From a bacterium (GTDB lineage Bacteria; Patescibacteriota; Minisyncoccia; Sungbacterales; HO2-52-23): a DNA stretch of 64,000 nt. The translations under genes and the position numbers were made by a program. The stretch's first letter is position 1. Every line of letters starts with the position of its first letter. This document shows positions 5,809-44,954 of the stretch, piece by piece. Below the pieces are notes generated by a model. The model worked only from the letters and a program-made list of their open reading frames with translations, had not been told where the DNA came from and did not search any database. Where the stretch lies: contig JAUYPW010000013.1 of assembly GCA_030697525.1 (NCBI GenBank), positions 2,293 through 66,292 of the forward strand, read 5' to 3'.

Positions 5809-5834
5809 TTCTCTTACTTAATTGTATTTAATTT

Positions 5835-7516: not shown

Positions 7517-7523
7517 TTTCTTT

Positions 7524-7550: not shown

Positions 7551-7573
7551 TATTGTAGTGATTTGTATTAAAG

Positions 7574-8611: not shown

Positions 8612-8675
8612 TCTTCTCTTTGGAATTAAGGACCTATACTTGAAAAGTGTAGCCTTTTAGGCTAGTATAGTTTTT

Positions 8676-9476: not shown

Positions 9477-9477
9477 T

Positions 9478-14215: not shown

Positions 14216-15294
14216 AATTGTTAATAGTAACTCAAAAGATAGACCACGCCGATGAAAATCTAGGCTTTTTTTGCAAATGGCTAGAGGAATTAAAAAATAA
14301 TTTTAGCGAGGTACGAGTCATAACTTCCTATTTAAATGAGAAAAATAAGCCTGATGGAATAAAAATTTTCTCTTTAGGCAAAGAGAGAGGTACGGGAAAG
14401 ACGAAGAGGGTTTGGAACTTCTGGAGTCTTTTTTCAGAGCACTATATTGATGCCGACGCTGTTTTTTTTCATATGGCGCCGGAGTTTGTAGTCGCTGCTT
14501 GGCCTTTTCTGTGGTCATTGAAAAAACCAACAGCTTTATGGTACACCCACAGAGTTGTTAATCCATACTTAAAAGTTGCTGAAAAAATAGTAGATAACAT
14601 TTTTACCGCCTCCGAATTAAGTTTTAGGCTGCCATCGCAAAAGGTATTGGTGATAGGACATGCCATTGATACAAACTATTTCAGACCAGTATTAGAAGAG
14701 TCTGCAAAACCAAAAGGAAATAAGACTATTAAATTACTTACTCTCGGCAGAATTTCGCCCATCAAAGACATAGAGACGATTTTATGGGCTAGCGAAATAT
14801 TAAAAAACCGCTGGAAAAGACCCTGGAAACTTTCCATCGTTGGCGGACCTCTATTACCCAGAGATCATAAATATCTACAAACCCTGAAAGATTTTGTAAA
14901 AGAGAAAGGTCTGGAGAATAAGGTTGATTTTATAGGTCCGGTTGACCATACAAAAGTGGCTGAAATTTATAACAACCATGATGTTTTTATCTCTATGTCC
15001 GGTACCGGCTCGATAGATAAATCTGTGTTGGAAGCCATGGCTTCTGGTCTTACGGTCATTACTTCCAACGAAGCTTTCAAAGACGCTCTTCCACCCCAAT
15101 ATTTTTTGGCAGAGAAGTCCGCGGACATACTTGCCGAACGCATAGAAATTCTAGCTGGGGAAACTTGTCCCAATTTGTCTCTTCGTCAAAGAGTGGTTGA
15201 TAAACATAGTCTTAAGACAACTATCGGTAAAATAAGCCAAAATCTTTTAAAAAATACTCATGACCTCGCACATCTACAAACTTCTAAGAGATAA
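14212..15294 (+). CDS. GT4 family glycosyltransferase
   Basis: ATGA start/stop overlap. The N-terminus is typical of GT4 (MKLLIVTQKIDHADENLGFF). The C-terminal motif is SMSGTGSIDKSVLEAMASGLTVITS. Confidence 0.8.
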   Translation: MKLLIVTQKIDHADENLGFFCKWLEELKNNFSEVRVITSYLNEKNKPDGIKIFSLGKERGTGKTKRVWNFWSLFSEHYIDADAVFFHMAPEFVVAAWPFLWSLKKPTALWYTHRVVNPYLKVAEKIVDNIFTASELSFRLPSQKVLVIGHAIDTNYFRPVLEESAKPKGNKTIKLLTLGRISPIKDIETILWASEILKNRWKRPWKLSIVGGPLLPRDHKYLQTLKDFVKEKGLENKVDFIGPVDHTKVAEIYNNHDVFISMSGTGSIDKSVLEAMASGLTVITSNEAFKDALPPQYFLAEKSADILAERIEILAGETCPNLSLRQRVVDKHSLKTTIGKISQNLLKNTHDLAHLQTSKR

Positions 15295-15730
15295 GACTGA
15301 AGGTTTTTTATTAGTAAACATTCCTTTTCTTCATAGACGTCTTCATCGTCACCGGCTAGGTTTAAAATATATTATAGCCGGCTCAACCGCGGCTGGGGTA
15401 GACCTGATCCTTCTTTTTCTTTTAACAGATATGGTGGGTATGTGGTATTTTTATTCAGCAATTATAGCCTATATATGCTCTTTTTTCACCAGCTTTTTTC
15501 TGCAAAAGTTCTGGACTTTTAGAGACAATGACCGGAGTAGAATAAAAAAGCAATTGGCTATATACATAGCTACTGCCGGAGTGAGCCTGACATTAAATTC
15601 ATTTTTTATGTTTGTTTTTGTGAGCTTCTTTCAAATCTGGTATCTGACGGCCCAGTTTATAACCTCTGCTCTGCTAGCTTTTGGCAGTTTTATACTCAAC
15701 AAAACAGTTACATTTAAAAAATTATCATAA
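15260..15730 (+). CDS. GtrA-like small polytopic membrane protein (putative polyprenyl-phosphate-sugar flippase)
   Basis: The GtrA signature is LKYIIAGSTAAGVDLILLFLLTDMVGMWYFYSAIIAYICSFFTSFFLQKFWTFRD, with four predicted TM segments. The only in-frame ATG (15260) overlaps the upstream GT by 35 nt, so the true start may be a non-ATG codon further downstream. Confidence 0.55.
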   Translation: MTSHIYKLLRDKTEGFLLVNIPFLHRRLHRHRLGLKYIIAGSTAAGVDLILLFLLTDMVGMWYFYSAIIAYICSFFTSFFLQKFWTFRDNDRSRIKKQLAIYIATAGVSLTLNSFFMFVFVSFFQIWYLTAQFITSALLAFGSFILNKTVTFKKLS

Positions 15731-21027: not shown

Positions 21028-21051
21028 TAACTTTTGTTTTTATAAAAAAAT

Positions 21052-21114
21052 AGTGACAAGTTTAGTACAAATAGAGTATTATATATATGGTGTGTGTTGA
21101 ATAACAACAATTTC
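21052..21114 (+). promoter_or_regulatory. sigma70-like promoter (TGACAA - 17 nt - TATTAT) with a conserved extended spacer; followed by a degenerate copy of the gmhA 5' end and the RBS AAGGAGG
   Basis: AGTGACAAGTTTAGTACAAATAGAGTATTATATATATGG...TTGAATAACAACAATTTCTAA is near-identical to the sequence at 22750-22800, which is the promoter plus start of the gmhA-like gene. Confidence 0.45.
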
Positions 21115-21150
21115 TAAAATCTTGTCAGTGCTAGAGAAAAGGAGGTAGTT

Positions 21151-22710
21151 ATGCGGACACCGAAAGTTCTTTTTATTTACCCACCGATACAGCTTACGGA
21201 TATAGAAACCCCTCGTCCTGATGGGTCACTAGGACCTCTTTACTTGGCTGGAGCTTTGCGAGAAATAGGAATTGAAGCAGACATAATAGACGCCAGCGTC
21301 GGCACTCCGGAAGATGATGTAAAAGATACTTTCCATAGAAGCGTATCACAGGAAAACGGTTTGATCCGTATTGGTATGTCTTGGGAACGTATAGAAGAGG
21401 TTCTGGGACAAAGGAATTATGATATTATAGGTATACATTCCAATTTTACTCCCCAGACCCGAATGGTTCTGAAGGTTGCCGAAATAGCCAAAAAAATCAA
21501 CCCGGAGACTTTAGTTATATCTGGCGGAGTAAACGCCCGTGCTATACCTAAATATCTTTTCCGCGATGGACTCGTGGATCTTGTCTGCACCACGGAAGGT
21601 GAAAAAGTAATGGTAGATATCGTTAATGGATGGACGAGAGACCAATCCATTAAAGGGTTGCAGGGAATACCCGGAACAATTTGCAGAAAAAGCGAAAGAA
21701 AGAATGCCGAAATTTTAGCTACTCCTCTGGGACTAAACACCGTGACTTCTGATTTGGATAAACTTCCCATTCCGGCTTGGGATAAACTGCCGTTTGAAAA
21801 GTACGATCAAATATCCGCAACCCCAGGAATATCCTTGATTGGCCATAACTTGCGCCACGCATCCATGATGACTTCCCGCGGTTGCCCTTTCCGCTGTCTT
21901 TATTGCCACATCTCCAGAGAAAAAGGAGATGGACTGGAAGATACTGGCGACATCGGTTCTTATCGCGTAAAATCGGTTGATAGGGTGTTTAAAGAAATAG
22001 AAATTCTTAAACATCTGGGGGTAAAAAGAGTTTTTCTAGAAGACGATAGTTTGCTTGCCAAGAAAAGCAGAGTGAAAGAAATTTTTAACGGCCTGCTGGG
22101 TGCTGGTCTTACCATGTTGGGAATAAATGGAGTAAATCTTGTACATTTTTTCCAAAGAAATAATGTAGGCAAGCTTGTGCCGGATGAAGACTATATGCAG
22201 CTCCTACAATCTTCCGGCTTTGGCCAAATTGTCTTTCCAATTGAGTCGGGTTCCCAAAGGATTCTGGATAAGTATGCTACCGCCAAATTAAAACTACCCA
22301 TAATGGATGTGGTGGGGCTAGTACAAGTCGCCAAGAAGGTTGGGATAGTCTGTCCCATAAATATGATGATTGGATTTCCGGATGAGAGCGAAGAGGAGAT
22401 GCTAATGTCAGTTGATCTTGCGCGTAAGTTGATTGATGCCGGAGCTCCTTACGTTACTTTCTTCATTCCTATCCCTTTCCCCGGATGCGATCTTTATGAT
22501 ATTGCTCTTGCGGGAGGGTATCTTAATCAAGAGTTTGACCCGGATATTTTCAATTGGAAGAAGCCGGTTATGGAAAACACCGTTGTCGCTCCGCAAAGGA
22601 TAGAAGAAATACGCGAGTGGGCTCAAGGAACTGTAAACACCAAAGAACACGTTGCCAATAGAATAAAAGAAAGCGCTGGAGCCAGAAGATGGGACTCCAA
22701 CGATTTATAA
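21151..22710 (+). CDS. B12-binding (cobalamin-dependent) radical SAM enzyme, class B radical SAM methyltransferase-like
   Basis: The N-terminal B12-binding Rossmann region is KVLFIYPP...LYLAGALREIGIEADIIDA...IIGIHSNF. The radical SAM CX3CX2C motif is MMTSRGCPFRCLYCH. A strong SD, AAGGAGGT, sits 6 nt upstream. Confidence 0.8.
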   Translation: MRTPKVLFIYPPIQLTDIETPRPDGSLGPLYLAGALREIGIEADIIDASVGTPEDDVKDTFHRSVSQENGLIRIGMSWERIEEVLGQRNYDIIGIHSNFTPQTRMVLKVAEIAKKINPETLVISGGVNARAIPKYLFRDGLVDLVCTTEGEKVMVDIVNGWTRDQSIKGLQGIPGTICRKSERKNAEILATPLGLNTVTSDLDKLPIPAWDKLPFEKYDQISATPGISLIGHNLRHASMMTSRGCPFRCLYCHISREKGDGLEDTGDIGSYRVKSVDRVFKEIEILKHLGVKRVFLEDDSLLAKKSRVKEIFNGLLGAGLTMLGINGVNLVHFFQRNNVGKLVPDEDYMQLLQSSGFGQIVFPIESGSQRILDKYATAKLKLPIMDVVGLVQVAKKVGIVCPINMMIGFPDESEEEMLMSVDLARKLIDAGAPYVTFFIPIPFPGCDLYDIALAGGYLNQEFDPDIFNWKKPVMENTVVAPQRIEEIREWAQGTVNTKEHVANRIKESAGARRWDSNDL

Positions 22711-22713
22711 CCC

Positions 22714-22739
22714 AATGAGGACCTCGGTCCTCATTTTTT
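22714..22739 (+). terminator. rho-independent terminator
   Basis: AATGAGGACC-tc-GGTCCTCATTTTTT. Confidence 0.7.
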
Positions 22740-22750
22740 AAAAGAAAACA

Positions 22751-22785
22751 GTGACAAGTTTAGCATAAACTAGGTAGTATATATT
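22751..22785 (+). promoter_or_regulatory. sigma70-like promoter (TGACAA - 17 nt - TAGTAT) ending about 6 nt before the ATG, which implies a leaderless or near-leaderless transcript
   Basis: GTGACAAGTTTAGCATAAACTAGGTAGTATATATT|ATG has no SD sequence. It is the same extended motif as at 21052 and 59269. Confidence 0.45.
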
Positions 22786-23421
22786 ATGAATAACAATAAT
22801 TCCTATGCTGAATCGTTTCTCCAGCAAATAAACGAGATTAGCACAGTTTTGAAGGTCTTATATGGCGCTAAGCTGGATCAGGCTGTAAACCTGCTTTTTG
22901 ATGCTTGGCGAGATGGTAGGTGGGTGTATATCATGGGTAACGGCGGTTCGGCCTCAACGGCCACGCATTTTGCCTCGGATTTGGCTAAAACGATTTGTGA
23001 TACCCCACAAGATTCAGGGCTAAAAGCCCTAGCTTTGGTTGATAATATTCCTCTGGTTAGCGCCCTGACCAATGATTGGGGTTGGGACAATCTTTATCTC
23101 AATCAATTAAAAAATTTTTATGTCCCCGGGGGCGTAGGTATTGGTATTAGTGTTCATGGGGGAAGCGGCAAAGAAATTGCTGGCCAGTGGTCGCAAAATC
23201 TGTTACGAGGACTGCAATTTATAAAAGACAAAGGCGGCAAGACCATAGGGTTAAGTGGTTTTGACGGCGGACCGATGAAAGATTTGGTAGATATCGGTAT
23301 TGTGGTGCCAGCCAATTCAACCCCGGTTGTAGAGGGCATGCATGTTGTTTTACACCACCTGCTAGTATTTGGCCTTAAAGAAAAAATTAATGAACACAAG
23401 AAAAATAGCCCTATTTATTGA
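22786..23421 (+). CDS. gmhA: D-sedoheptulose-7-phosphate isomerase (SIS domain), GmhA-like
   Basis: The SIS-domain motif is VYIMGNGGSASTATHFASDL. The length is ~210 aa, with about 50 aa before the GNGGS motif as in GmhA. Confidence 0.75.
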   Translation: MNNNNSYAESFLQQINEISTVLKVLYGAKLDQAVNLLFDAWRDGRWVYIMGNGGSASTATHFASDLAKTICDTPQDSGLKALALVDNIPLVSALTNDWGWDNLYLNQLKNFYVPGGVGIGISVHGGSGKEIAGQWSQNLLRGLQFIKDKGGKTIGLSGFDGGPMKDLVDIGIVVPANSTPVVEGMHVVLHHLLVFGLKEKINEHKKNSPIY

Positions 23422-23944
23422 CCGAGACGGGGTAATCAATGATACGGTTGATAGAGGCGAAGTTTTTTTTGTAAAAGGAAAGAAAGTGCGCTGGACAGCT
23501 CCTTTTAATCGCGAAGAATTTAAATTTAAACCCGGCGTGCATAATGCTCTGGCGGCAACAAAATCCTTAGGCTATATGAATATTTTAGTTACCAACCAGC
23601 CCGACGTTGGCTATGGCAATATGACCGTAGAAGAACATGACCACATGATGTTTCTGGTCAGACAACTGCCCTTGGATGATATTTATATATGTCTGCATAC
23701 CAGGTTTGATACTTGCGGTTGTAAAAAACCACTGCCGGGCATGATCACGGAAGCTGCTATAAAATGGGATATTGATTTGCCGCGCTCATTTGTGGTGGGG
23801 GATACCGCAAATGATGTGGGCGCTGGTAAGGCTGCTGGTTGCCGGACTATAATTTTAGATCATCCGTATAATCAAGATGTTGCGACTGATGTTAGATTAT
23901 TTGATTTGCAAGAGCTAGTAAGGTTTTTATCCAGAACACGCTAA
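23390..23944 (+). CDS. gmhB: HAD-IIIA phosphatase, D-glycero-D-manno-heptose-1,7-bisphosphate phosphatase GmhB-like
   Basis: The HAD motif I is IALFIDRDGVIN. It is followed by VTNQPDVGYG... and a Cys cluster CxxxxxC..C. The start is taken at MNTRK; an upstream in-frame ATG at 23369 is an alternative. Confidence 0.7.
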   Translation: MNTRKIALFIDRDGVINDTVDRGEVFFVKGKKVRWTAPFNREEFKFKPGVHNALAATKSLGYMNILVTNQPDVGYGNMTVEEHDHMMFLVRQLPLDDIYICLHTRFDTCGCKKPLPGMITEAAIKWDIDLPRSFVVGDTANDVGAGKAAGCRTIILDHPYNQDVATDVRLFDLQELVRFLSRTR

Positions 23945-23950
23945 TTAAAA

Positions 23951-23987
23951 AGCCAATCTTTACCACAGAGATTGGTCCTGTTTTTTA
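23951..23987 (+). terminator. rho-independent terminator
   Basis: CCAATCT-ttaccacag-AGATTGG followed by TTTTTT. Confidence 0.55.
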
Positions 23988-24044
23988 TCATAAGGTCGCT
24001 ATAAAAATGTACAAAATTGTTATAAATTGTTTAATAAAAAAATT

Positions 24045-24779
24045 ATGAAAATTTTTATTGATAGCGCCAATTTAACCGATATAGAAGAAGGTCTCAAACG
24101 CGGTTTTGCTCAAGGAGTGACCACCAACCCCTCGCTTCTGGCCAAAGAACCCAAATCCTCGTTTGAGGAACATGTAAAAAAGATAGTTGAACTGATAAAT
24201 CGATATCAGCCCGGGATGAGTTTAAGCATAGAAGTATTTTCAAAAGATCCGTCAGAAATACTTTCCCAAGCTCAGAGATTTGTAAAAGATTTTTCTTATC
24301 CCCAGCTAAGCATAAAAGTTCAGATCGGCTGGAACGAATTAGAAACTATAGCTAAGTTAAGCAAAATGGGAATTTCTGTTAATTGTACGGCGTGTATGAG
24401 CGTGACTCAAGCAGTAATGGCGGCGCGCGCCGGCGCCAAATATGTCAGTATTTTTTGGGGGCGTATACGGGACGGGGGTACAGAGCTGGAAACTGCTGCC
24501 CAACGAAATCATTTAAAAAGCAAAAAAACCTTTGATGATAAAGATTTTGACCCCGAATTTGTTGTCAACTCAACCAGAAAAATATTGGATAACGACAAGG
24601 TAGAGTCAGAAATAATAGTCGGCAGCATAAGAAGCCTTACGGATATCAGAGACGCGGGGATAGCCGGGGCTCATATAGTTACCATACCACCCAAGTTTTT
24701 CCCGGATATGACAAGTCATTTCAAAACCGACCAGGTGGTTAACCAATTTTTAAATGACTTTAAGAGCTGGCTAAGCTAA
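24045..24779 (+). CDS. transaldolase / fructose-6-phosphate aldolase family (TalC/FSA-type), plausible sedoheptulose-7-P supplier
   Basis: MKIFIDSANLTDIEEGLKRGFAQGVTTNPSLLAKE matches the short transaldolase N-terminus (FxDTAN...GVTTNPSL). Confidence 0.75.
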   Translation: MKIFIDSANLTDIEEGLKRGFAQGVTTNPSLLAKEPKSSFEEHVKKIVELINRYQPGMSLSIEVFSKDPSEILSQAQRFVKDFSYPQLSIKVQIGWNELETIAKLSKMGISVNCTACMSVTQAVMAARAGAKYVSIFWGRIRDGGTELETAAQRNHLKSKKTFDDKDFDPEFVVNSTRKILDNDKVESEIIVGSIRSLTDIRDAGIAGAHIVTIPPKFFPDMTSHFKTDQVVNQFLNDFKSWLS

Positions 24780-24793
24780 AATTTATAAAGCTG

Positions 24794-25903
24794 TTGATGA
24801 AAATTGAATTAGTGAATTTAAAAAGGCAATACAACCTGCATCGGAAAAAAATATCTTCTGCTGTTTTGAGAGTTCTTGGCAGTGGGAGATATATTCTGGG
24901 TTCTGAAGTAGAAAAATTTGAACGCGAGTTTGCTGATTTCTGTAGGGCCAAACATTGTATAGGTGTTGCTTCCGGCACAGACGCCCTGCACTTATCGCTA
25001 AAAGCTCTGGGAATCAAAAATGGCGATGAGATTATAACCGTCCCAAACTCTTTTGTCGCCACTGCTATGAGCATTTCCATGGTTGGCGCAAAACCTGTTT
25101 TTGTTGATATAGATCCAGAAACCTGCAATATGGATGTGAAGAAGATTACGGACAAGATTACGGCTAAAACCAAAGCTATTATCCCTGTACATCTTTACGG
25201 ACAGCCGGCGGATATGGACTCTATTTTAAAAATAGCGCGCAGACATAATCTGAAGATTATAGAAGACGCATGTCAAGCGCATGGCGCGCTATATAAAGGA
25301 AGGCGCGTAGGAACCCTAGGCGATATAGGAGCCTTTAGTTTTTATCCCAGTAAAAATTTGGGAGGATACGGGGATGGTGGTGCAGTAGTGACCAACAATG
25401 ATGAACTGGCAAAAAAAATCTTTTTATACAGAGTTTATGGCGGAAAGGATAGACATACTTATTTAGCACAGGGGTTGAATTCCAGGCTGGATGCCGTACA
25501 GGCCGCTGTCTTAAGGATCAAATTGAAGCATCTTGACCGATGGAACAAGCAAAGAGCGGCCAAGGTAAAAATGTATGATACTTTGCTCAAAAAAATGCCA
25601 ATAAAGACCATCTCGACCCAGCCTTATACACAATCAGTTCATCACCTCTACGTAATAAGAACCGCACACAGAGACAGCTTGAGAGAATATCTTGCGCATA
25701 AGGGAATTAGCACAGAAATCCATTATCCGGTTCCAATTCATCTTCAACCGTTATATAAAAATCTGGGGTATAGAATAGGAAATTTACCTGTTGCTGAAAC
25801 TGCCGCCAACGAGATTATATCTTTGCCCATATTTCCTGAGATGGAAAATAAAGAAATCAAATATATTACCGATATAATTAGAGAATTTTTCCAAAAACCA
25901 TGA
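24794..25903 (+). CDS. DegT/DnrJ/EryC1/StrS-family PLP-dependent sugar aminotransferase
   Basis: It has the characteristic N-terminus (..LKRQY....I..A...VL.SG.YILG.EVEKFE.EFA.F). The overall length is ~370 aa and it ends ...ISLPIFPEM. Confidence 0.8.
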   Translation: MMKIELVNLKRQYNLHRKKISSAVLRVLGSGRYILGSEVEKFEREFADFCRAKHCIGVASGTDALHLSLKALGIKNGDEIITVPNSFVATAMSISMVGAKPVFVDIDPETCNMDVKKITDKITAKTKAIIPVHLYGQPADMDSILKIARRHNLKIIEDACQAHGALYKGRRVGTLGDIGAFSFYPSKNLGGYGDGGAVVTNNDELAKKIFLYRVYGGKDRHTYLAQGLNSRLDAVQAAVLRIKLKHLDRWNKQRAAKVKMYDTLLKKMPIKTISTQPYTQSVHHLYVIRTAHRDSLREYLAHKGISTEIHYPVPIHLQPLYKNLGYRIGNLPVAETAANEIISLPIFPEMENKEIKYITDIIREFFQKP

Positions 25904-26577
25904 AAGCCGTAATTTTAGCTGCAGGGAGGGGAAAAAGAATGGGTCCTCTTACTCGTCACACCCCCAAACCCTTATTAGCCGTTGAGGGTAAACCTTTATT
26001 GGATTGTATTTTAAGCACACTTCCTTTGGATATAGATGAAGTTATTATTGTTGTGGGTTATTTGGGAGAGAAGATAATTAAACGGTATGGGGAACTTTAT
26101 TTTGGCAAAAAAATATCTTATGTGTATCAGAAAAAATTAAACGGAACTGCCCAAGCCCTTTTTCTAACCAAAAGATTTTTTAACAAAAACAAAGAACGTT
26201 TCGCCGTGATTTATGGAGATGAATTGCCAACCAAACGGCAAATGGAAAAATGCTTGTCATATAAATACAGCTGGTTGTGTCGGAAAACAAAAGACCCAAG
26301 CCAATCCGGCATAGCTACCTTGTCCAATAAGGGATACATAATAGACGCAGTGGAGAAACCAAAACACAGTAAGACCAACCTGGCGGTTGCCGGTCTTATG
26401 GTTATAGACACAGACATATTTAATTATAAAATGACCAAACACGAAAACAGTGAATATTATCTCGCCTCAGTTATGCAGGGGTTCGTAAAAGAACACAAAG
26501 TTTATCCTGTAAAAGGAGACCATTATGTTGATTTTGGTTCACCCGAAGATTTAAAAAGGAGTAATAACAATAAATAA
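25900..26577 (+). CDS. sugar-phosphate nucleotidyltransferase, HddC-like (heptose-1-P guanylyltransferase candidate)
   Basis: The NTP-transferase N-terminus is MKAVILAAGRGKRMGPLTRHTPKPLL. The protein is 225 aa. ATGA start/stop overlap. Confidence 0.7.
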   Translation: MKAVILAAGRGKRMGPLTRHTPKPLLAVEGKPLLDCILSTLPLDIDEVIIVVGYLGEKIIKRYGELYFGKKISYVYQKKLNGTAQALFLTKRFFNKNKERFAVIYGDELPTKRQMEKCLSYKYSWLCRKTKDPSQSGIATLSNKGYIIDAVEKPKHSKTNLAVAGLMVIDTDIFNYKMTKHENSEYYLASVMQGFVKEHKVYPVKGDHYVDFGSPEDLKRSNNNK

Positions 26578-26578
26578 C

Positions 26579-27517
26579 ATGATATCTATTGTAATACCCG
26601 TTTATAACGAAGAAGCGACTCTAAGAGAACTACACCAGCGCGTAGTGGAAGTCATGCTGAAACAAAATGACAGCTACGAAATAATTTTTATAAACGACGG
26701 TTCGACAGACAGAACTTATGAAGTGGCTAAAGATTTACGGCCTCTTAAAATGATTACACTGCAGAGGAATTACGGAGATACGCCAGCCCTCGATGTGGGC
26801 ATACAGGAGGCAAAAGGAGATATTATAATTTTTATGGATGCGGATCTGCAAGATGATCCGGGAGAATTGATTAAAATGCTACATAAACTTTCTGAAGGTT
26901 GTGACGTAATAGTCAGCTGGCGCAGAAAAAGGTATGATAGACCGTCTCGTATTATTTTTTCTCGTTTTGCCAATATGATTGTAAGTTATGTTCTCGGAGT
27001 AAATATACATGACTTTGGCTGCGGTTTAAAAATATATAAAAGTAAATTTATAAAAGATTTTAGATTATGGGGTGAGGCTCAGGTTTTTTTACCAGCTATT
27101 GCCAAAGAAAGAGGGGCAAGGATATGCGAGGTTGAAATAAGCCACTATCCGAGAAAGTACGGTAGTTCAAAGATCAAGATATCCAAAATGATAAAAGGAG
27201 GTTTCGATTTAATCAGTGTGGCTTTTTTTATAAAATATTTTTCTAAACCACTTAGATTTTTCGGGGGATGGGGCTTGTTCTCAATTGTTCTGTCGTTCAC
27301 TGCCTTTATTTCCTCTCTTTTGTTGCGTATATATAATACGCCCCTTACTACGACTCCTCTTCCTACAGTAGGCACCCTTTTTGCCTTAACCGGCGTTATA
27401 CTTTTTATGTTAGGCTTATTGGCGGAGATCGTGCTAAGGAACTATTACGCGGTAGTAGGTCGGTCCCCTTATTTTATTCGCGAAATCATAGACAATGGTC
27501 GGAGTGTTAAAGAATAA
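26579..27517 (+). CDS. GT2 polyprenyl-phosphate glycosyltransferase (GtrB/DPM1-like) with two C-terminal TM helices
   Basis: MISIVIPVYNEE...FINDGSTDRT...DADLQDDP carries the DxD motif. The C-terminal TM segments are WGLFSIVLSFTAFISSLLL and LFALTGVILFMLGLLAEIV. Confidence 0.8.
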   Translation: MISIVIPVYNEEATLRELHQRVVEVMLKQNDSYEIIFINDGSTDRTYEVAKDLRPLKMITLQRNYGDTPALDVGIQEAKGDIIIFMDADLQDDPGELIKMLHKLSEGCDVIVSWRRKRYDRPSRIIFSRFANMIVSYVLGVNIHDFGCGLKIYKSKFIKDFRLWGEAQVFLPAIAKERGARICEVEISHYPRKYGSSKIKISKMIKGGFDLISVAFFIKYFSKPLRFFGGWGLFSIVLSFTAFISSLLLRIYNTPLTTTPLPTVGTLFALTGVILFMLGLLAEIVLRNYYAVVGRSPYFIREIIDNGRSVKE

Positions 27518-28640
27518 AAAAAAATTGAGAATAGGAATCATAGGCGGTGGTATATTTGGGACCACCTGCGCTTTAGTTCTTGGAAAGAAGCACTCGGTAG
27601 TTTTATACGAACGCCATTCCGATATACTGACCGAGGCTTCTTATGCTAATCAATATAGACACCATATGGGTTATCACTATCCACGAAGTCCTGAAACAAT
27701 CGAGGAAATAAAAAGTTCCACAAAAGAATTCGAGACTTTTTATATAGATATGGTAGAAAACATACCCGCTTATTATTGTGTTTCCAAAAGTGATAGTCTT
27801 GTATCCTCTGACAAGTTCTTGCAAATATGCAACAGCAAAGACCTGCCCCACAAGAAGGAGTTTCCAGAAAGGTCTTTGTTAAATTCTTACAATATTTCTA
27901 TTTGTGTAAAAACACCGGAGGGAGTATATGATTATGAAAAATTGAAAAAAAATATTTGGCTAAGGCTCAAGCAAGAAAAAGGCATAAAATTAAAGCTGGG
28001 ATATAGTGTTATGGGTGGTAAGTTGGATGCTAAGGGGAAGAAACTTATTGTGGCCAGAAGTCCAAAAAACAGCCTCAGTGAAGAAATGTTTGACTGTGTA
28101 ATAAATGCCACCTATGCTAACTATAACAATTTTTGCGGCTGGTTTAATTTTAAAAAAAAACCGATTGATTTAAGGTTAAAGGAGGTCATTGTTTTAAAGA
28201 TCAAAAGTAGAAAGAAGTGCGCTATTACCATTGTGGACGGGCCATTTGCTACGCTTGTCCCTATTAGTGGCAGCGGAGATTTGTATACTTTCGGAGATGT
28301 TCCTCTCTCTGTACACCGCCATTTAGGTCTTGCTGAAAACATATCTATATATGATAACGCAGGCAATCTTCCATATTCAAAATGGGAATCAATGCGAGAA
28401 AGATGTGTCAAGTGGTTCCCTATCCTCCGGAAAGCTGAATATATAAAATCTATGTTTGTTATCCTGCCGGTTGAACTAGAAAACATAAAAAATGACGCCA
28501 GACCCACTGATATCACAGGCCATGGATCTGGTTGCTGGTCAATTTTGAGTGGTAAGATTATAACGTGTGTGTCTGCGGCCATGACCATACTTAAAGAAGT
28601 AGAGAGCTACACACAAACAAATGAAAAAAAAGATAACTAG
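27495..28640 (+). CDS. FAD/NAD(P)-binding oxidoreductase, function unknown
   Basis: The N-terminal Rossmann dinucleotide fold is KLRIGIIGGGIFGTTCALVLGKKHSVVLYER. No confident family assignment. Confidence 0.5.
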   Translation: MVGVLKNKKKLRIGIIGGGIFGTTCALVLGKKHSVVLYERHSDILTEASYANQYRHHMGYHYPRSPETIEEIKSSTKEFETFYIDMVENIPAYYCVSKSDSLVSSDKFLQICNSKDLPHKKEFPERSLLNSYNISICVKTPEGVYDYEKLKKNIWLRLKQEKGIKLKLGYSVMGGKLDAKGKKLIVARSPKNSLSEEMFDCVINATYANYNNFCGWFNFKKKPIDLRLKEVIVLKIKSRKKCAITIVDGPFATLVPISGSGDLYTFGDVPLSVHRHLGLAENISIYDNAGNLPYSKWESMRERCVKWFPILRKAEYIKSMFVILPVELENIKNDARPTDITGHGSGCWSILSGKIITCVSAAMTILKEVESYTQTNEKKDN

Positions 28641-28641
28641 A

Positions 28642-29619
28642 ATGATTATATTGAGTAAAACACCTTTTCGTCTGCCTCTGGGGGGCGGTTCTACAGACAT
28701 GCCGTCATATTACGAAAAATACAGCGGTTTTATATTTTCTGTAACAATAAATATGTATATGGATATTTTTATCAAGGAGCCAATTACAGACGACTTAGTT
28801 CATATGCACTATATGAGATATGAAGCTGAAGATTCTTCAGACAAAATTAAACACACACTGGGGAAGGAGGCATTAAAGATGATGAATATAAAAAACAAAA
28901 TTCTAGTTTCTTTTAATGCTGATACTCCGGCTGGGACAGGGCTCGGATCTTCCGGGGCTTGCGCGGTTGGTCTGCTCAAGGGCCTGGCTTTATATAAAGG
29001 GGGGACTCTAAGCAATATTGAGGCGGCGGAGAGATCTTTTATTATAACCCAAAATCTCGGATTGCCAGACGGCAAGCAAGATCCATATGTCTGCGCCTTA
29101 GGCGGTTTTGTGGTCTTGGAAATAGATAAAAATGGTAAAGTCAAAGTTACCAAACCAGCAATATCTAAAAATACCGCTGACCGATTTATAAACAATAGTC
29201 TTTTCTTTTACACAGGGATAAAACGTGATAGCGAACCCATTTTATCTGCTCAAAATACCTCCCAAGTCCTTGAGTTAAAACACCGGACCAAAGAGATTGG
29301 TAAAGAAATATATAAATGTTTTTTGAAGGGGGATCTTGATAAATTCGGAAAATTGCTAGATGAGCACTGGAGGGTAAAAAAAATGATGTCCGGCAGTATA
29401 AGTAACACTTGGCTGGATGAAATTTACCTGGTAGCCCAAAAAGCAGGGGCCCTGGGAGGTAAAATTATGGGTGCCGGAGGTGGAGGGTATTTTATGTTTT
29501 ACTGTCCTTCAGAAAAAATAAAGGCTAAGGTTAGAAAGACGTTGCAAAGGTTTAAACTTAGAGAGATGAATTTTGCTATTGATGAACATGGTGCTCGAGC
29601 CGACGCGGTTTATTTATAA
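28642..29619 (+). CDS. GHMP-family sugar kinase, HddA-like (D-glycero-D-manno-heptose 7-phosphate kinase candidate)
   Basis: The GHMP ATP-binding motif is PAGTGLGSSGACAVGLLKGL. The N-terminus is MIILSKTPFRLPLGGGSTD. The C-terminal segment KIMGAGGGGYFMFY is present. Confidence 0.7.
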   Translation: MIILSKTPFRLPLGGGSTDMPSYYEKYSGFIFSVTINMYMDIFIKEPITDDLVHMHYMRYEAEDSSDKIKHTLGKEALKMMNIKNKILVSFNADTPAGTGLGSSGACAVGLLKGLALYKGGTLSNIEAAERSFIITQNLGLPDGKQDPYVCALGGFVVLEIDKNGKVKVTKPAISKNTADRFINNSLFFYTGIKRDSEPILSAQNTSQVLELKHRTKEIGKEIYKCFLKGDLDKFGKLLDEHWRVKKMMSGSISNTWLDEIYLVAQKAGALGGKIMGAGGGGYFMFYCPSEKIKAKVRKTLQRFKLREMNFAIDEHGARADAVYL

Positions 29620-29628
29620 TTTGTAAAA

Positions 29629-30480
29629 ATGTCTAATAACAACATAGGCTACATATTAAGTTGCCCAAATTGTAAATCTAGACTTCTAATTGAGAAAGAT
29701 TTTTGTAAATGTAGCCAATGCGGCGCTTTGTATAAACACGAAAGCGGGATATTTTTTTTCCATGACTCGGGGGAATATAATACTGGTGCTGATAAATCCG
29801 ACAATCTTATTTTTCAAATAAAGTCTCTCATTAAGAAATCCCCTAAACTATTTTATTTTCTTAATCATACACTGGGTATTCATGCTGGAAAATCAGTCAA
29901 AGATTTCCTAAGAAATATACCAAAAGGAGCACTAATCATAAACTTAGGTTCCGGATCTAATATTATAAGAGATGACGTCATAAATCTTGATTCTTATCCT
30001 TACCCTGGAGTTAAGATAGTGTCGGATGTGCACAAGTTGCCCTTTAAGGACGCATCTGTAGACGTGGTCGTAGCCGAATCCTTGCTTGAGCATGTTAAGA
30101 ATCCGGAGGCAGTGGTAAAAGAGATTTATCGGGTATTGAAGCCCGGAGGAACAATCTATATTACGACCCCCTTCATCATAGGGTTCCATTCTTCTCCGGA
30201 TGATTATTATCGTTGGACCTACTCGGGCCTTAGGATTTTATTTAAAGATTTTAAAGAAATAGAATTGGGGTCAGCGGTAGGGCCTACTGTAGCCTTTACT
30301 TATATTCTAAGGGAATGGTTAGCGGTGTTTTTTTCTTTCAATTCGGCCTATATCTACCAATTGGTAACCCTATTCCTGATGTTCATCTTGGCCCCTCTTA
30401 ATTTATTAGATTTTATACTCATTAAATATAAAATTTCTAAAAACATAGCCCATATCTTCTATTTTGTCGGTAAAAAATAA
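29629..30480 (+). CDS. SAM-dependent methyltransferase with N-terminal Trm112-like zinc ribbon and C-terminal hydrophobic tail
   Basis: The zinc ribbon is CPNCKSRL...CKCSQCG. The MTase motifs are INLGSGSN, VVVAESLLEHV and VLKPGGTIYITTP. A TM-like C-terminus is present. Confidence 0.65.
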   Translation: MSNNNIGYILSCPNCKSRLLIEKDFCKCSQCGALYKHESGIFFFHDSGEYNTGADKSDNLIFQIKSLIKKSPKLFYFLNHTLGIHAGKSVKDFLRNIPKGALIINLGSGSNIIRDDVINLDSYPYPGVKIVSDVHKLPFKDASVDVVVAESLLEHVKNPEAVVKEIYRVLKPGGTIYITTPFIIGFHSSPDDYYRWTYSGLRILFKDFKEIELGSAVGPTVAFTYILREWLAVFFSFNSAYIYQLVTLFLMFILAPLNLLDFILIKYKISKNIAHIFYFVGKK

Positions 30481-30496
30481 CCTTCCTTGTTTTATT

Positions 30497-32399: not shown

Positions 32400-33476
32400 A
32401 TGTCCAAAAAAGCATTAATAACTGGGGTAACCGGACAGGATGGCTCTTACCTTGCAGAGCTTTTGTTAAAAAAAGGTTACCGGGTATATGGTTTGCAAAG
32501 AGGGGCCAGTGTGCCCAACACTGCCCGGGTGGATCATTTAAACGGAGGATCCTCCCCAGCCAACTTTTTTATGGCCTATGCTGATTTATCCGACAGCTCC
32601 AGTTTAACAAACATTATAAACAGAATTAAGCCGGACGAAATTTATAATCTAGGCGCACAGAGCCATGTACAAATAAGTTTTGATATACCAGAATATACTG
32701 CCAATGTAGATGCGCTGGGCCCTCTGAGGATTTTAGAAATAATTCGTGGCCTGAATTTGCCCACTAGATATTATCAGGCTAGTTCGTCGGAGATGTTTGG
32801 AAAAGTTCTTGCCACACCGCAAAATGAAAAAACTCCTCTTAATCCGCAGTCTCCTTATGGACTCTCAAAGGTTTTTGCTTTCCATATCACTAAAATTTAC
32901 CGCGAAGGATACGGAATATTTGCATCTAATGGTATGCTCTTCAATCACGAATCTCCGCGGCGCGGATTGAATTTTGTAACTAGAAAAATTACCGTGGGCA
33001 TGGCCCGCATAAAACTTGGCCTGCAAAAAACGCTACAACTGGGCAATCTTGAATCCAAACGTGATTGGGGATATGCCAAGGATTATGCGGAAGCTGTTTG
33101 GATGATTCTTCAGCACAAGGAGCCGGATGATTTTGTAATAGCTACCGGTGAGACACACACAGTCCGTGAATTTGTCCAAGAAGTCGCTGGTCATTTGGAT
33201 TTTGACTTGGTTTGGAGAGGAAAGGGTCTTAAGGAGCACGGAATTGATAGAAAAAGCGGCAAAGTAATAATAGAAATAAGCCCGAAATATTTTCGTCCTA
33301 AAGAAGTAGATACCCTGATAGGTGATGCTTCAAAAGCTCGCAGGATTCTAGGGTGGAAACCAAAAACAAAATTTGTCCAATTAGCTAAACTTATGGCTTT
33401 AGCGGATCTTGAAAATGTTAAACGTGGGCAAGAATTGGGCCTTGCTATGGAGACATCCAGCAATAGAAATTCTTAA
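32400..33476 (+). CDS. gmd: GDP-mannose 4,6-dehydratase family (Gmd; possibly a GDP-heptose 4,6-dehydratase in this context)
   Basis: [37 protein letters not shown] is near-canonical for Gmd. The catalytic S..Y...K region is intact. Confidence 0.9.
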
Positions 33477-44944: not shown

Positions 44945-44954
44945 AAATATTTAA

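What the first reader, a model, noticed from the sequence alone, without database searches (positions are those of the whole stretch)
21151..22710. Cobalamin-dependent (class B) radical SAM enzyme at the head of the GDP-heptose module
A B12-binding domain plus the CX3CX2C radical SAM core (CPFRCLYC) is the architecture of enzymes that methylate or rearrange unactivated carbons (GenK, Fom3 or TsrM-like). It lies directly upstream of gmhA/gmhB/HddC/HddA, which suggests C-methylation or another radical modification of a heptose or other sugar in this surface glycan. Cobalamin-dependent chemistry is also unexpected for a reduced-genome CPR-like organism, which is unlikely to make B12. That implies cofactor scavenging.
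Basis: partly seen in the sequence, partly recalled or inferred. Interest (0 to 1): 0.6.

Follow-up and report, generated by a model that had tools for sequence, protein, structure and literature searches.

The report
B12-type radical SAM enzyme of heptose cassette
This gene encodes an uncharacterised radical enzyme with a vitamin-B12-type domain that, in dozens of uncultured bacteria and archaea, sits beside genes for making a seven-carbon sugar and exporting it to the cell surface, so it most likely modifies that sugar in a way not yet known.

Summary
ORF 21151-22710 (+, 519 aa) has an N-terminal B12-binding Rossmann domain and a radical SAM barrel with an invariant CPFRCLYC motif.

It belongs to a tight family (50-63% identity, about 510 aa) found only in metagenome genomes. 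Most are Patescibacteria. Others are DPANN archaea, Delta-, Gamma- and Alphaproteobacteria, Nitrospirae and Elusimicrobiota. No member or sister group carries a functional name, and every curated family model scores far below its cut-off.

Across 44 loci the conserved neighbours are a polyprenyl-phosphate GT2, a transaldolase, a sugar-1-P nucleotidyltransferase, a heptose-type GHMP kinase, a GmhA-like isomerase and a GmhB-like phosphatase. A GlpD-fold flavoenzyme, an aminotransferase, a methyltransferase and a 616-aa multipass membrane protein are frequent additions. One subclade instead lies next to ADP-heptose-type genes and a GT9 heptosyltransferase.

The link to a heptose surface-glycan pathway is therefore well supported.

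C-methylation is the best guess (about 0.45). OxsB/HpnJ-like rearrangement and AprD4-like B12-independent dehydration remain open. The CPR origin and B12 scavenging cannot be judged from this window.

The parts
21052..21082 (+). Promoter-like element upstream of the radical SAM gene (GTGACA-18 nt-TATTAT, inside a 20-mer that recurs at 22750)
   Evidence: Consensus scan gives 10 of 12 matches. The 20-mer AGTGACAAGTTTAGYAYAAA occurs only twice in the window, and 0 of 100 shuffles reach two matches. About 50 nt of the region is repeated. Function is inferred.
21151..22710 (+). B12-binding-domain radical SAM protein, 519 aa. B12 domain at nt 21229-21621, CX3CX2C motif at nt 21883-21906, radical SAM barrel at nt 21871-22419.
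22714..22739 (+). Intrinsic-terminator-like hairpin (9-bp stem followed by a T run) immediately after the stop codon
   Evidence: MFE -14.1 kcal/mol, z = -4.4, and 0 of 200 shuffles fold as well. Sequence.
22750..22780 (+). Second copy of the promoter-like element, ending about 6 nt before the ATG of the isomerase gene (possibly a leaderless start)
22786..23421 (+). SIS-domain isomerase, GmhA-like (sedoheptulose-7-P isomerase type)
   Evidence: NCBIfam gmhA scores 95.8 bits against a cut-off of 209. The best PDB sequence hits are phosphoheptose isomerases, up to 70 bits. Present in 28 of 44 loci.
23369..23944 (+). HAD-IIIA phosphatase, GmhB-like (the start codon is uncertain)
   Evidence: NCBIfam histidinol-phosphatase domain 107 bits; GmhB models 84-93 bits, below cut-off. 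Present in 27 of 44 loci.
24027..24779 (+). Short-type transaldolase dedicated to the cassette
   Evidence: Pfam TAL_FSA 135 bits. The best PDB hits are true transaldolases (112 bits), while FSA scores 47 bits or less. Present in 29 of 44 loci; window-type copies have a median identity of 59%.
24794..25903 (+). DegT/PseC/ArnB-type nucleotide-sugar aminotransferase
   Evidence: Pfam 428 bits. PseC 294 bits and ArnB 238 bits, both below cut-off. Copies 59-62% identical lie just upstream of NTP-rSAM in L008, L020, L021 and L026.
25900..26577 (+). Sugar-1-phosphate nucleotidyltransferase (fills the HddC role; nucleotide specificity unknown)
   Evidence: Present in 29 of 44 loci and usually immediately upstream of the radical SAM gene in relatives.
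26579..27517 (+). GT2 polyprenyl-phosphate glycosyltransferase (ArnC/GtrB-like) with two C-terminal TM helices
   Evidence: ArnC model 158.6 bits, below its cut-off of 529. TM segments. The most conserved neighbour, present in 33 of 44 loci and usually immediately downstream of the radical SAM gene.
27495..28640 (+). FAD-dependent oxidoreductase with the GlpD / glycine-oxidase fold
   Evidence: Pfam DAO 37 bits. Model pLDDT 92. Best fold match is E. coli GlpD, TM 0.77. Fused to a GFO_IDH_MocA domain in many relatives, and to the GT2 catalytic domain in P0158 and P0161.
28621..29619 (+). GHMP kinase, HddA-like heptose kinase
   Evidence: NCBIfam HddA 149.8 bits against a cut-off of 600. The best PDB hits are D-glycero-D-manno-heptose kinases, 145 bits. 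Present in 28 of 44 loci.
29629..30480 (+). Class I SAM methyltransferase, a frequent cassette member
   Evidence: Present in 16 of 44 loci.
30464..32314 (+). 616-aa multipass membrane protein with a C-terminal soluble domain. It is a candidate GT-C-type transferase using the polyprenyl-P-sugar.
   Evidence: At least 8 hydrophobic segments. No Pfam hit even at E 0.05. Present in 11 of 44 loci. The role is inferred.
15260..15730 (+). GtrA-family small membrane protein, a possible flippase for the polyprenyl-P-sugar (loosely linked)
   Evidence: Pfam GtrA_DPMS_TM 77.6 bits. Found in only 6 of 44 loci.
32400..33476 (+). GDP-mannose 4,6-dehydratase-type SDR. It could supply a 4-keto-6-deoxy substrate for the aminotransferase (not a conserved cassette member).
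   Evidence: Pfam GDP_Man_Dehyd 450 bits. Relatives carry only distant SDRs at 23-28% identity, except L017 at 49%.

Best explanation
The gene encodes a class B (B12-binding domain plus radical SAM) enzyme. It is the tailoring enzyme of a conserved, horizontally spread cassette that builds a heptose and delivers it to the cell surface.

Inferred pathway:
1. The transaldolase supplies sedoheptulose-7-P.
2. The GmhA-like isomerase, the HddA-like kinase, the GmhB-like phosphatase and the nucleotidyltransferase convert it to an NDP-heptose.
3. The flavoenzyme (with a GFO domain in other genomes) oxidises a ring hydroxyl.
4. In this window's variant the DegT aminotransferase converts the keto group to an amine.
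5. The ArnC-like GT2 loads the sugar on polyprenyl phosphate.
6. The 616-aa membrane protein transfers it to an acceptor outside the membrane.

The radical SAM enzyme most likely uses 5'-deoxyadenosyl radical chemistry together with methylcobalamin. It would add a methyl group to an unactivated carbon of the heptose-derived (amino)sugar, as GenK, GenD1, Fms7 and MoeK5 do on other sugars. The substrate is probably nucleotide-linked or polyprenyl-phosphate-linked.

Shown: the domain architecture, the family, the conserved gene neighbourhood and the fusions. Inferred: cobalamin binding, methyl transfer, the carbon attacked and the stage at which the enzyme acts.
For: Architecture and fold:
- Both Pfam domains score above their cut-offs. 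The cluster cysteines are invariant, and so are N-domain motifs such as PRPDGSLGPLYLA, SNFTPQT, GGVNA and TEGE.
- The best fold matches are the solved class I B12-radical SAM enzymes.
- A family profile aligns the N-domain with the cobalamin domains of OxsB, TokK, CysS and TsrM. It aligns AprD4 only over the barrel.
- The nearest curated model in all 28 members is the Sden_1168 B12-dependent methyltransferase family (126 bits for this protein; best member E 7e-50).

Context:
- tblastn of window proteins against 33 loci of at least 15 kb finds GHMP kinase in 28, SIS in 26, transaldolase in 26, GT2 in 25, HAD in 23, NTP-transferase in 20 and the FAD enzyme in 18.
- Unbiased clustering over 44 loci gives the same ranking and no other conserved family.
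- The common gene order is (AT)-NTP-rSAM-GT2-FAD-HAD/GHMP-SIS-TAL-MT-X616.
- One subclade instead sits beside a PfkB kinase, a CTP_transf_like adenylyltransferase and a GT9 heptosyltransferase, still with a transaldolase.
- The isomerase and the kinase have heptose enzymes as their best solved relatives.

Fusions:
- The radical SAM protein is fused to an LbH domain most similar to NDP-3-amino-sugar N-acetyltransferases WlbB, QdtC and WxcM, up to 109 bits.
- The GT2 catalytic domain is fused to the FAD enzyme in some relatives.

Precedent: class B enzymes that C-methylate sugars or cyclitols are listed in PMC12931638 (GenK, GntE/GenD1, Fms7, MoeK5, PctJ/N/O). From my own knowledge, GenD2, GenS2, GenN and GenD1 form the same enzyme set: GFO oxidoreductase, aminotransferase, class I methyltransferase and B12-radical SAM.
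Against: - No characterised enzyme is close. Identity to any solved structure is 18% or less. Every NCBIfam model scores far below its cut-off. Sister groups at 35-47% identity carry no names.
- The Pfam B12-binding domain does not prove cobalamin binding. AprD4 and ArsL sit in the same sequence network but bind none (PMC12931638).
- In the profile alignment the loop under the corrin reads S97-N98-F99, and N98 aligns with OxsB Asn186. The review links a hydrophilic lower face with enzymes that do not perform radical methylation. The alignment is too distant to settle this, and three of the 28 aligned members (P0067, P0101, P0103) have I, L or M at position 98.
- The second-best curated family (HpnJ) and the best PDB profile hit (OxsB) are non-methylating.
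- A few family members (L004, L028) lie outside any heptose cassette.
- The switch to ADP-heptose-type neighbours is one nested clade, so it represents a single event.
- The window itself gives no evidence of cobalamin supply.
Confidence: 0.45

Rival explanations
1. The enzyme is cobalamin-dependent but does not methylate. It would carry out a radical rearrangement, ring contraction, carbocycle formation or oxidation of the heptose, possibly on the lipid-linked sugar, in the manner of OxsB, HpnJ or BchE.
For: OxsB is the best PDB hit of the family profile (43 bits), with the cobalamin domain aligned and OxsB Asn186 opposite N98. HpnJ (80 bits) and BchE (70 bits) are the second and fourth best NCBIfam models, and all 28 members match them. 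From my own knowledge, HpnJ acts on a sugar that a GT2 enzyme has attached to a lipid, which parallels the rSAM-GT2 adjacency seen here. The review notes that a hydrophilic lower axial environment goes with non-methylating chemistry (PMC12931638).
Against: Scores for HpnJ, BchE and OxsB are all far below family level, and the Sden_1168 methyltransferase model scores higher in every member. The residue after the third cysteine that would sit between the cluster and cobalamin is hydrophobic (I254, nearly invariant; this is inferred from TokK W215 lying at Cys3+2 in the alignment). The review associates that feature with radical methylases. Most characterised class B enzymes acting on sugars are methylases (PMC12931638).
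Confidence: 0.22
2. The N-terminal domain is a degenerate, cobalamin-free Rossmann domain, as in AprD4. The enzyme would be a radical 1,2-diol dehydratase or deaminase that, together with a reductase, deoxygenates the heptose.
For: AprD4 has the highest TM-score among PDB matches (TMq 0.64, 18% identity) and acts on an aminoglycoside sugar. The AprD4 family model hits 19 of 28 members. SDR and GFO oxidoreductases that could serve as the reductase are common in the loci. This reading removes the cofactor-supply problem for a reduced genome. The review confirms that AprD4 and ArsL lack cobalamin despite similar domains (PMC12931638).
Against: The AprD4 model scores only 42 bits against a cut-off of 500, versus 126 bits for Sden_1168. 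The family profile aligns AprD4 only across the barrel (aa 230-469), while true cobalamin binders align across the N-domain. The N-domain is among the most conserved parts of the family, with more than 25 invariant positions. That conservation is unexpected for a vestigial domain, although it could reflect substrate binding instead.
Confidence: 0.12
3. The cassette makes an eight-carbon sugar rather than a heptose, as in lincosamide biosynthesis (LmbR transaldolase, LmbN isomerase, LmbP kinase, LmbK phosphatase, LmbO guanylyltransferase, LmbS aminotransferase). The radical SAM enzyme would tailor that octose. This rival concerns the substrate, not the chemistry.
For: A dedicated transaldolase accompanies GmhA-, HddA-, GmhB- and HddC-like genes plus an aminotransferase, which is the Lmb gene set (PMC4351081). 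The transaldolase is one of the most conserved cassette members, including in a gammaproteobacterial locus that should already have a pentose phosphate pathway (L026, 69% identity). None of the four heptose-type genes reaches its equivalog cut-off.
Against: One subclade pairs the enzyme with a PfkB kinase, an HldC-type adenylyltransferase and a GT9 heptosyltransferase, all components of the ADP-heptose route. The isomerase and kinase have heptose enzymes as best solved relatives. The pentose phosphate pathway is reported incomplete in 92% of Patescibacteria MAGs (PMC8672522), so a cassette-borne transaldolase may simply secure S7P. Lmb sequences could not be obtained for a direct comparison.
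Confidence: 0.12

Closest known systems
GenK, GenD1 (GntE) and Fms7, the cobalamin-dependent radical SAM C-methyltransferases of aminoglycoside sugars
   Same: They share the N-terminal B12 domain plus radical SAM barrel. They act on sugar carbons next to hydroxyl or amino groups. From my own knowledge, they work alongside an FAD or GFO oxidoreductase, a PLP aminotransferase and a class I methyltransferase (GenQ/GenB1; GenD2/GenS2/GenN). That enzyme set is also present in this cassette.
   Different: No detectable family-level relationship was found, and no curated methylase model passes its cut-off. The substrate here would be a heptose for a cell-surface glycan, not a pseudo-oligosaccharide antibiotic. 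The hosts are uncultured CPR, DPANN and other bacteria, not actinomycetes.
Sden_1168 / PhpK family B12-radical SAM P-methyltransferases (NCBIfam NF038361, TIGR04479)
   Same: This is the best-scoring curated model for every family member, and the alignment covers both domains (aa 2-461). The review lists SD1168 among the methyltransferases (PMC12931638).
   Different: The score is 126 bits against a cut-off of 575, so this protein is not a member. No phosphonate genes (for example a PEP mutase) occur in the window or among the conserved neighbours.
HpnJ (hopanoid cyclitol ether formation) and OxsB (oxetanocin ring contraction)
   Same: Both are class B enzymes acting on a sugar ring. From my own knowledge, HpnJ's substrate is a sugar attached to a lipid by a GT2 enzyme and OxsB's is a nucleotide. 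These parallel the NTP-rSAM-GT2 gene order here. OxsB is the best PDB profile hit.
   Different: They do not methylate. The similarity is remote (HpnJ 80 bits against a cut-off of 578; OxsB 17-18% identity). There are no hopanoid or oxetanocin genes nearby.
AprD4, the radical SAM 1,2-diol dehydratase of apramycin
   Same: It has the same two-domain shape and the highest TM-score (0.64), and it acts on an aminosugar.
   Different: It binds no cobalamin (PMC12931638). Only the barrel aligns with the family profile. The model score is 42 bits against a cut-off of 500.
GDP-D-glycero-alpha-D-manno-heptose pathway (GmhA, HddA, GmhB, HddC) and the lincosamide octose pathway (LmbR/N/P/K/O)
   Same: All four enzyme types are present. 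The additional dedicated transaldolase and aminotransferase match the Lmb set (PMC4351081).
   Different: All four score below the equivalog cut-offs. The nucleotide is unknown. No known heptose or octose pathway includes a B12-type radical SAM enzyme, and a literature search for radical SAM + cobalamin + heptose found nothing relevant.
ArnB/ArnC/ArnT and GtrA/GtrB/Gtr-type lipid-linked sugar transfer
   Same: The cassette has a DegT aminotransferase, a GT2 that loads polyprenyl phosphate (ArnC is its best model, at 159 bits), a multipass membrane protein and a GtrA-family protein in the island.
   Different: The sugar is a heptose-type sugar rather than Ara4N or glucose. The membrane protein matches no GT-C Pfam family. 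A flavoenzyme is fused or adjacent to the GT2, which from my own knowledge recalls DprE1 acting on a lipid-linked sugar.

Membership tests
Radical SAM superfamily (PF04055) | CX3CX2C motif that binds the [4Fe-4S] cluster | tested here: met
   C245, C249 and C252 are invariant in 28 of 28 homologues.
Radical SAM superfamily (PF04055) | Partial TIM-barrel fold and a Pfam score above the gathering threshold | tested here: met
   Pfam 50.6 bits against 29.5. The AF2 model matches radical SAM barrels.
Class B (cobalamin-dependent) radical SAM enzymes | N-terminal Rossmann-type B12-binding domain preceding the barrel ('class I' architecture of TokK, OxsB, TsrM and QCMT) | tested here: met
   PF02310 47.2 bits against 32.1. 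Foldseek E-values of 1e-15 to 2e-19 to QCMT, TsrM, OxsB and TokK. The family profile aligns the N-domain to the OxsB, TokK, CysS and TsrM cobalamin domains.
Class B (cobalamin-dependent) radical SAM enzymes | Actually binds cobalamin (base-off) | not testable with these tools
   AprD4 and ArsL show the same domain pair without cobalamin (PMC12931638). No residue-level structural superposition was available.
Class B radical SAM methyltransferases (GenK, Fom3, TsrM, PhpK, KedN5 or HpnR type) | Membership of a curated methylase family | tested here: not met
   Sden_1168 126 against 575; PhpK 69 against 600; KedN5 50.5 against 700; HpnR 43 against 650; TsrM-type 29 against 500; QCMT 56.5 against 360.
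Class B radical SAM methyltransferases | Hydrophobic residue under the corrin and a hydrophobic residue between the corrin and the cluster (trend described in PMC12931638) | tested here: inconclusive
   The loop reads S97-N98-F99, and N98 aligns with OxsB N186. I254, at Cys3+2, is nearly invariant and hydrophobic, as TokK W215 is. Alignments at 18% identity or less are not reliable at the level of single residues.
Class B radical SAM methyltransferases | Methyl transfer from SAM via methylcobalamin (SAH and 5'-dA co-products) | not testable with these tools
   This needs a biochemical assay.
AprD4 family radical SAM diol dehydratase (NF033070) | Score above the family cut-off | tested here: not met
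   42 bits against 500. Only 19 of 28 members hit at E <= 1e-10.
HpnJ (TIGR03471) and BchE (TIGR02026) | Score above the family cut-off, plus a hopanoid or bacteriochlorophyll gene context | tested here: not met
   80 against 578 and 70 against 481. The neighbours are sugar-pathway genes.
GDP-D-glycero-alpha-D-manno-heptose pathway (GmhA/HddA/GmhB/HddC) | All four enzyme types encoded together | tested here: met
   SIS, GHMP kinase, HAD-IIIA phosphatase and NTP-transferase all lie within 21151-29619. The best solved relatives of the isomerase and the kinase are heptose enzymes.
GDP-D-glycero-alpha-D-manno-heptose pathway (GmhA/HddA/GmhB/HddC) | Each protein reaches its NCBIfam equivalog cut-off | tested here: not met
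   gmhA 95.8 against 209; HddA 149.8 against 600; GmhB 83.9 against 149.6; HddC 71.4 against 300.
GDP-D-glycero-alpha-D-manno-heptose pathway (GmhA/HddA/GmhB/HddC) | The nucleotide is GDP | tested here: inconclusive
   The best hits of the nucleotidyltransferase are the N-domain of archaeal GlmU, AglF, RmlA and GMPPB; HddC ranks only sixth. One subclade uses ADP-heptose-type enzymes instead.
Polyprenyl-phosphate-linked (Arn/Gtr-type) extracytoplasmic glycosylation | GT2 with C-terminal TM helices, a flippase and a multipass GT-C transferase | tested here: inconclusive
   The GT2 is ArnC-like with 2 TM helices. A GtrA-family gene lies at 15260. The 616-aa protein has at least 8 TM segments but matches no Pfam family, and its fold was not modelled.

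The most novel reading that the evidence does not exclude
This family would be the first cobalamin-dependent radical SAM enzyme dedicated to cell-envelope heptose biosynthesis. It would produce a C-methyl-branched or chain-extended heptose (for example an 8-deoxy-octose by C7 methylation) or a rearranged one. That sugar would be a widespread and so far unseen component of the surfaces of CPR bacteria and DPANN archaea, exported through a polyprenyl-phosphate carrier. If so, these reduced-genome organisms would depend on scavenged cobamide to build their envelope.
Probability: 0.3. Interest if true: 0.75.

Novelty: new variant of a known kind. Interest (0 to 1): 0.55.

Why it matters
Class B radical SAM enzymes perform some of the hardest carbon-carbon chemistry in biology. 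Those characterised so far serve mainly antibiotic, cofactor, pigment, lipid or peptide pathways. Here a tight, unnamed family is tied by conserved synteny and gene fusions to a heptose pathway and a lipid-carrier export route in dozens of uncultured lineages.

This gives enzymologists a defined small set of candidate substrates (S7P, heptose phosphates, NDP-heptose or aminoheptose, polyprenyl-P-heptose). It predicts an undescribed sugar on the surfaces of CPR and DPANN cells, whose envelopes are almost unknown chemically. If cobalamin is really used, envelope synthesis in these episymbionts would depend on a cofactor they probably have to obtain from others.

Tried and rejected
1. PDB sequence search with the single protein. 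The top hits were de novo designed TIM barrels, a low-complexity artefact over aa 260-300. Real relatives were weak, and the profile search was more useful.
2. Literature searches: radical SAM + cobalamin + heptose; B12-binding + radical SAM + Patescibacteria; heptose / CPR / radical SAM; Sden_1168. None describes this family or cassette.
3. Viral contigs. 129 relatives were found and the best 80 were kept. All have 39% identity or less and none carries the cassette. The phage lead rests on the single contig L004.
4. Octose (Lmb-like) reading. I considered this seriously. It was down-weighted by the GT9, PfkB and HldC-type subclade and by the heptose-enzyme best hits. It is not excluded, because Lmb sequences could not be fetched.
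5. A search for conserved partners that would indicate cofactor supply (B12 transporters, corrinoid proteins, ferredoxin or flavodoxin). None was found among neighbour families present in 4 or more loci.
6. Rfam scan for a cobalamin riboswitch. There was no hit of any family in the window.
7. Names for sister clusters at 32-47% identity. None carries a functional name.
8. Taxonomic placement of the window. The NCBI record says only 'bacterium', the exact-protein contig look-up failed, and the window holds no marker genes.
9. I first read the ADP-heptose-type neighbourhoods as several independent associations. The tree shows one nested clade, so they count as one event.


Full report
**Observation**

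The ORF at 21151-22710 (+) is real and encodes 519 aa. Pfam finds a B12-binding domain (aa 27-157, 47.2 bits, cut-off 32.1) and a Radical_SAM domain (aa 241-423, 50.6 bits, cut-off 29.5). The CPFRCLYC motif is C245/C249/C252 (nt 21883-21906). In an alignment of 28 homologues the three cysteines are invariant, as are more than 25 positions of the N-terminal domain. These include the motifs PRPDGSLGPLYLA, SNFTPQT, GGVNA and TEGE.

An AlphaFold2 model built on that alignment is confident (pLDDT 86, pTM 0.87). Its best PDB matches are the solved 'class I' B12-radical SAM enzymes QCMT/MgmA, TsrM, OxsB and TokK, together with AprD4.

**The family**

The protein belongs to a tight family. The 120 best database hits are 52-62% identical, about 510 aa long, and all come from metagenomes.

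An exhaustive search of 1.84 billion cluster representatives puts the whole family in one 50% cluster (705 bits). After it come a few sister groups at 35-47% identity, then a plateau of about 30%-identical class B proteins. In all, 194 representatives have E <= 1e-30. None of ten sister clusters examined (32-47% identity) carries a functional name.

Every NCBIfam model scores far below its cut-off. The best, in all 28 members, is the Sden_1168 B12-dependent methyltransferase family (126 bits against 575). HpnJ (80), ApyD (73), BchE (70) and PhpK (69) follow, and AprD4 scores 42 against 500. The enzyme is therefore a class B-type protein with no characterised close relative.

**Genomic context**

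A scan of one genome per species returned 43 loci. They come from Patescibacteria (the majority), Deltaproteobacteria, Nitrospirae, Gamma- and Alphaproteobacteria, Dehalococcoidales, Elusimicrobiota, and Woese- and Pacearchaeota.

tblastn of the window's proteins against the 33 loci of at least 15 kb gave these counts: HddA-like GHMP kinase 28, GmhA-like SIS protein 26, transaldolase 26, polyprenyl-phosphate GT2 25, HAD phosphatase 23, nucleotidyltransferase 20, flavoenzyme 18. The glycosyltransferases and methyltransferases upstream of the gene recur in 8 loci or fewer.

Unbiased clustering of all ORFs in 44 loci gave the same ranking:
- GT2 in 33 loci
- transaldolase in 29
- nucleotidyltransferase in 29
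- GHMP kinase in 28
- SIS in 28
- HAD in 27
- class I methyltransferase in 16
- aminotransferase in 14
- flavoenzyme in 11 as a short form plus 9 as a GFO fusion
- 616-aa membrane protein in 11

No other conserved family appeared. In particular there was no corrinoid transporter and no redox partner.

The usual gene order is (aminotransferase)-nucleotidyltransferase-rSAM-GT2-flavoenzyme-phosphatase/kinase-isomerase-transaldolase-methyltransferase-membrane protein. A sister group at 45% identity also sits next to a nucleotidyltransferase and a GHMP kinase. The cassette in this window spans 21151-32314, with the radical SAM gene moved to its head.

**Is the sugar a heptose?**

- The best solved relatives of the isomerase are phosphoheptose isomerases.
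- Those of the kinase are D-glycero-D-manno-heptose kinases (145 bits).
- The aldolase-family protein resembles true short transaldolases, not fructose-6-phosphate aldolases.
- The nucleotidyltransferase is generic, so 'GDP' is not established.
- None of the four reaches its NCBIfam equivalog cut-off.

A dedicated transaldolase with these four enzymes and an aminotransferase is also the signature of the lincosamide octose pathway (LmbR/N/P/K/O/S; PMC4351081). I therefore considered an eight-carbon product.

Against that reading, one subclade of the family (L016/L130, L025, L032, L035) lies beside different genes. These are a PfkB kinase, an HldC-type adenylyltransferase and a GT9 heptosyltransferase, which are parts of the ADP-heptose route, again with a transaldolase. 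A distance tree shows this subclade as a single nested clade. It therefore counts as one replacement event, but the event kept heptose as the common denominator.

The pentose phosphate pathway is reported incomplete in 92% of Patescibacteria MAGs (PMC8672522). This offers a simple reason for a cassette-borne transaldolase. I put heptose at roughly 0.8 and octose at about 0.1.

**The rest of the pathway**

The GT2 is ArnC/GtrB-like and has two C-terminal TM helices. The 616-aa protein has at least eight hydrophobic segments and a C-terminal soluble domain but matches no Pfam family. A GtrA-family gene lies at 15260-15730. Together these suggest a carrier-lipid route to an extracytoplasmic acceptor.

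The flavoenzyme model (pLDDT 92) has the GlpD / glycine-oxidase fold. That fold belongs to enzymes that oxidise a C-OH or C-N bond, and GlpD acts on a phosphorylated polyol. In relatives the flavoenzyme is often fused to a GFO_IDH_MocA oxidoreductase, and twice to the GT2 catalytic domain. This pattern points to oxidation of the sugar at or just after the lipid-loading step. It would be followed either by reduction (GFO variants, giving an epimer) or by transamination (variants with the DegT aminotransferase, including this window). These steps are inference.

**What the radical SAM enzyme does**

Evidence for cobalamin-dependent C-methylation:
- The class B architecture is present.
- The N-domain aligns with the cobalamin domains of OxsB, TokK, CysS and TsrM, whereas AprD4 aligns only over the barrel.
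- The nearest curated family is a B12-dependent methyltransferase.
- Sugar C-methylation is the main known role of class B enzymes on carbohydrates, as in GenK, GntE/GenD1, Fms7 and MoeK5 (PMC12931638).
- The accompanying oxidoreductase, aminotransferase and class I methyltransferase mirror the gentamicin garosamine and purpurosamine enzyme sets (from my own knowledge).
- In two relatives the enzyme is fused to an LbH domain whose best solved relatives are the NDP-3-amino-sugar N-acetyltransferases WlbB, QdtC and WxcM. This implies a nucleotide-linked aminosugar pathway.

Evidence against:
- AprD4 and ArsL show that this domain pair can exist without cobalamin (PMC12931638).
- HpnJ and OxsB, which do not methylate, are the next-nearest references.
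- The loop expected under the corrin reads S97-N98-F99, with N98 aligned to OxsB Asn186. The review links a hydrophilic lower face to non-methylating chemistry. The alignment is too remote to rely on.

My estimates are:
- C-methyltransferase 0.45
- B12-dependent non-methylating rearrangement or oxidation 0.22
- B12-independent dehydratase 0.12
- other 0.2

I cannot resolve whether the enzyme acts on a sugar phosphate, the NDP-sugar or the lipid-linked sugar. Its position between the nucleotidyltransferase and the GT2 favours a late step, and so does its position before the GT9 in the variant clade.

**Local anatomy in this window**

The gene has a promoter-like element (GTGACA-18-TATTAT), an AGGAGG ribosome-binding site, and a strong hairpin with a T run directly after the stop codon (-14.1 kcal/mol, z -4.4). 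The 20-mer AGTGACAAGTTTAGYAYAAA and about 50 nt around it recur in front of the isomerase gene. The 20-mer itself occurs nowhere else in the window. The gene therefore looks like its own transcription unit that shares a promoter type with the module. This fits a rearrangement that moved it to the head of the cassette.

**CPR origin and B12**

The NCBI record is labelled only 'bacterium', and the window has no marker genes. The window contains no B12 uptake or biosynthesis gene and no cobalamin riboswitch. With 64 kb this says little. The scavenging argument is reasonable but untested.

**Verdict**

The specific chemistry and the use of the cofactor remain inferred. The enzyme is a new, uncharacterised branch of a known enzyme class, in a cassette combination that I could not find described.

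Noticed in passing
window 21028-21153 and 22711-22788: About 50 nt of upstream sequence, including the 20-mer AGTGACAAGTTTAGYAYAAA and a TATAT-rich -10-like box, is duplicated in front of the radical SAM gene and the GmhA-like gene. In the second copy the box ends about 6 nt before the ATG, which suggests a leaderless start. In the first copy the equivalent ATG opens only a 5-codon mini-ORF (21087-21104). This looks like a promoter duplication left by a gene rearrangement.
   Followed up: partly
window 37176-39971 (+) and 39974-40951 (+): A 931-aa protein fuses a pyruvate-kinase barrel, a PUA-like domain, ATP sulfurylase and APS kinase (Pfam 235, 146, 256 and 157 bits). A sulfotransferase gene follows. 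This is an unusual PAPS-synthesis fusion and implies that the surface glycan is sulfated.
   Followed up: no
window 43512-54262 (+): This region is a nonulosonic-acid (pseudaminic or legionaminic acid type) cluster. It contains HisF/HisH-like genes, a CMP-transferase, a GFO oxidoreductase, NeuB, a UDP-GlcNAc 2-epimerase, a PglD-like acetyltransferase, NUDIX, a second LbH protein, a second DegT aminotransferase and a PseB/PglF-type dehydratase. A flippase (54259-55758) and a PMT_2 GT-C (55755-57182, - strand) follow. Almost the whole 64-kb window is a glycan island on one strand.
   Followed up: no
window 57272-62838 (-): E1 dehydrogenase alpha and beta subunits, a radical SAM-SPASM protein (59939-61147), a methyltransferase and a ferredoxin-NADP-reductase-like flavoprotein (62092-62838) lie together. 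This could be a second radical or TPP-based sugar-tailoring set. The reductase could also serve radical SAM enzymes.
   Followed up: no
L004 10001-11926 (Logan SRR22388126 contig, 23.5 kb); proteins P0088 and P0046: The same radical SAM family is fused to an N-terminal WlbB/QdtC-like LbH N-acetyltransferase domain. It lies in a sugar gene cluster that lacks the heptose genes and sits directly next to an SU10-type portal protein and DUF5681. The contig may be a phage or prophage carrying glycan-modifying genes.
   Followed up: partly
L001 3015-4742; L026 18499-19998; L027 about 782: Second, very distant B12-radical SAM paralogues (22-26% identity, 499-575 aa) occur in the same glycan loci as the main family member. 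In L001 the paralogue lies next to a GT9 heptosyltransferase.
   Followed up: no
proteins P0158 and P0161 (604 aa); P0125 and many others (about 650 aa): The cassette flavoenzyme is fused either to the GT2 catalytic domain (without its TM helices) or to a GFO_IDH_MocA oxidoreductase. This suggests DprE1/DprE2-like oxidation and reduction of a lipid-linked sugar.
   Followed up: partly
window 784-10875 (+): A run of large secreted or surface proteins lies upstream of the glycan island. They carry PG_binding_1 domains (784-4440, 5835-6824, 7574-8611), TPR repeats, and Lamin-tail plus PKD domains. They are possible acceptors or cell-wall-anchored partners of the glycan.
   Followed up: no
window 21676-21705 (aa 176-185 of the radical SAM protein): A roughly 10-residue insertion (GTICRKSERK region) is unique to this window's protein among the 28 aligned homologues. 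It is the only internal stretch with pLDDT below 50.
   Followed up: no
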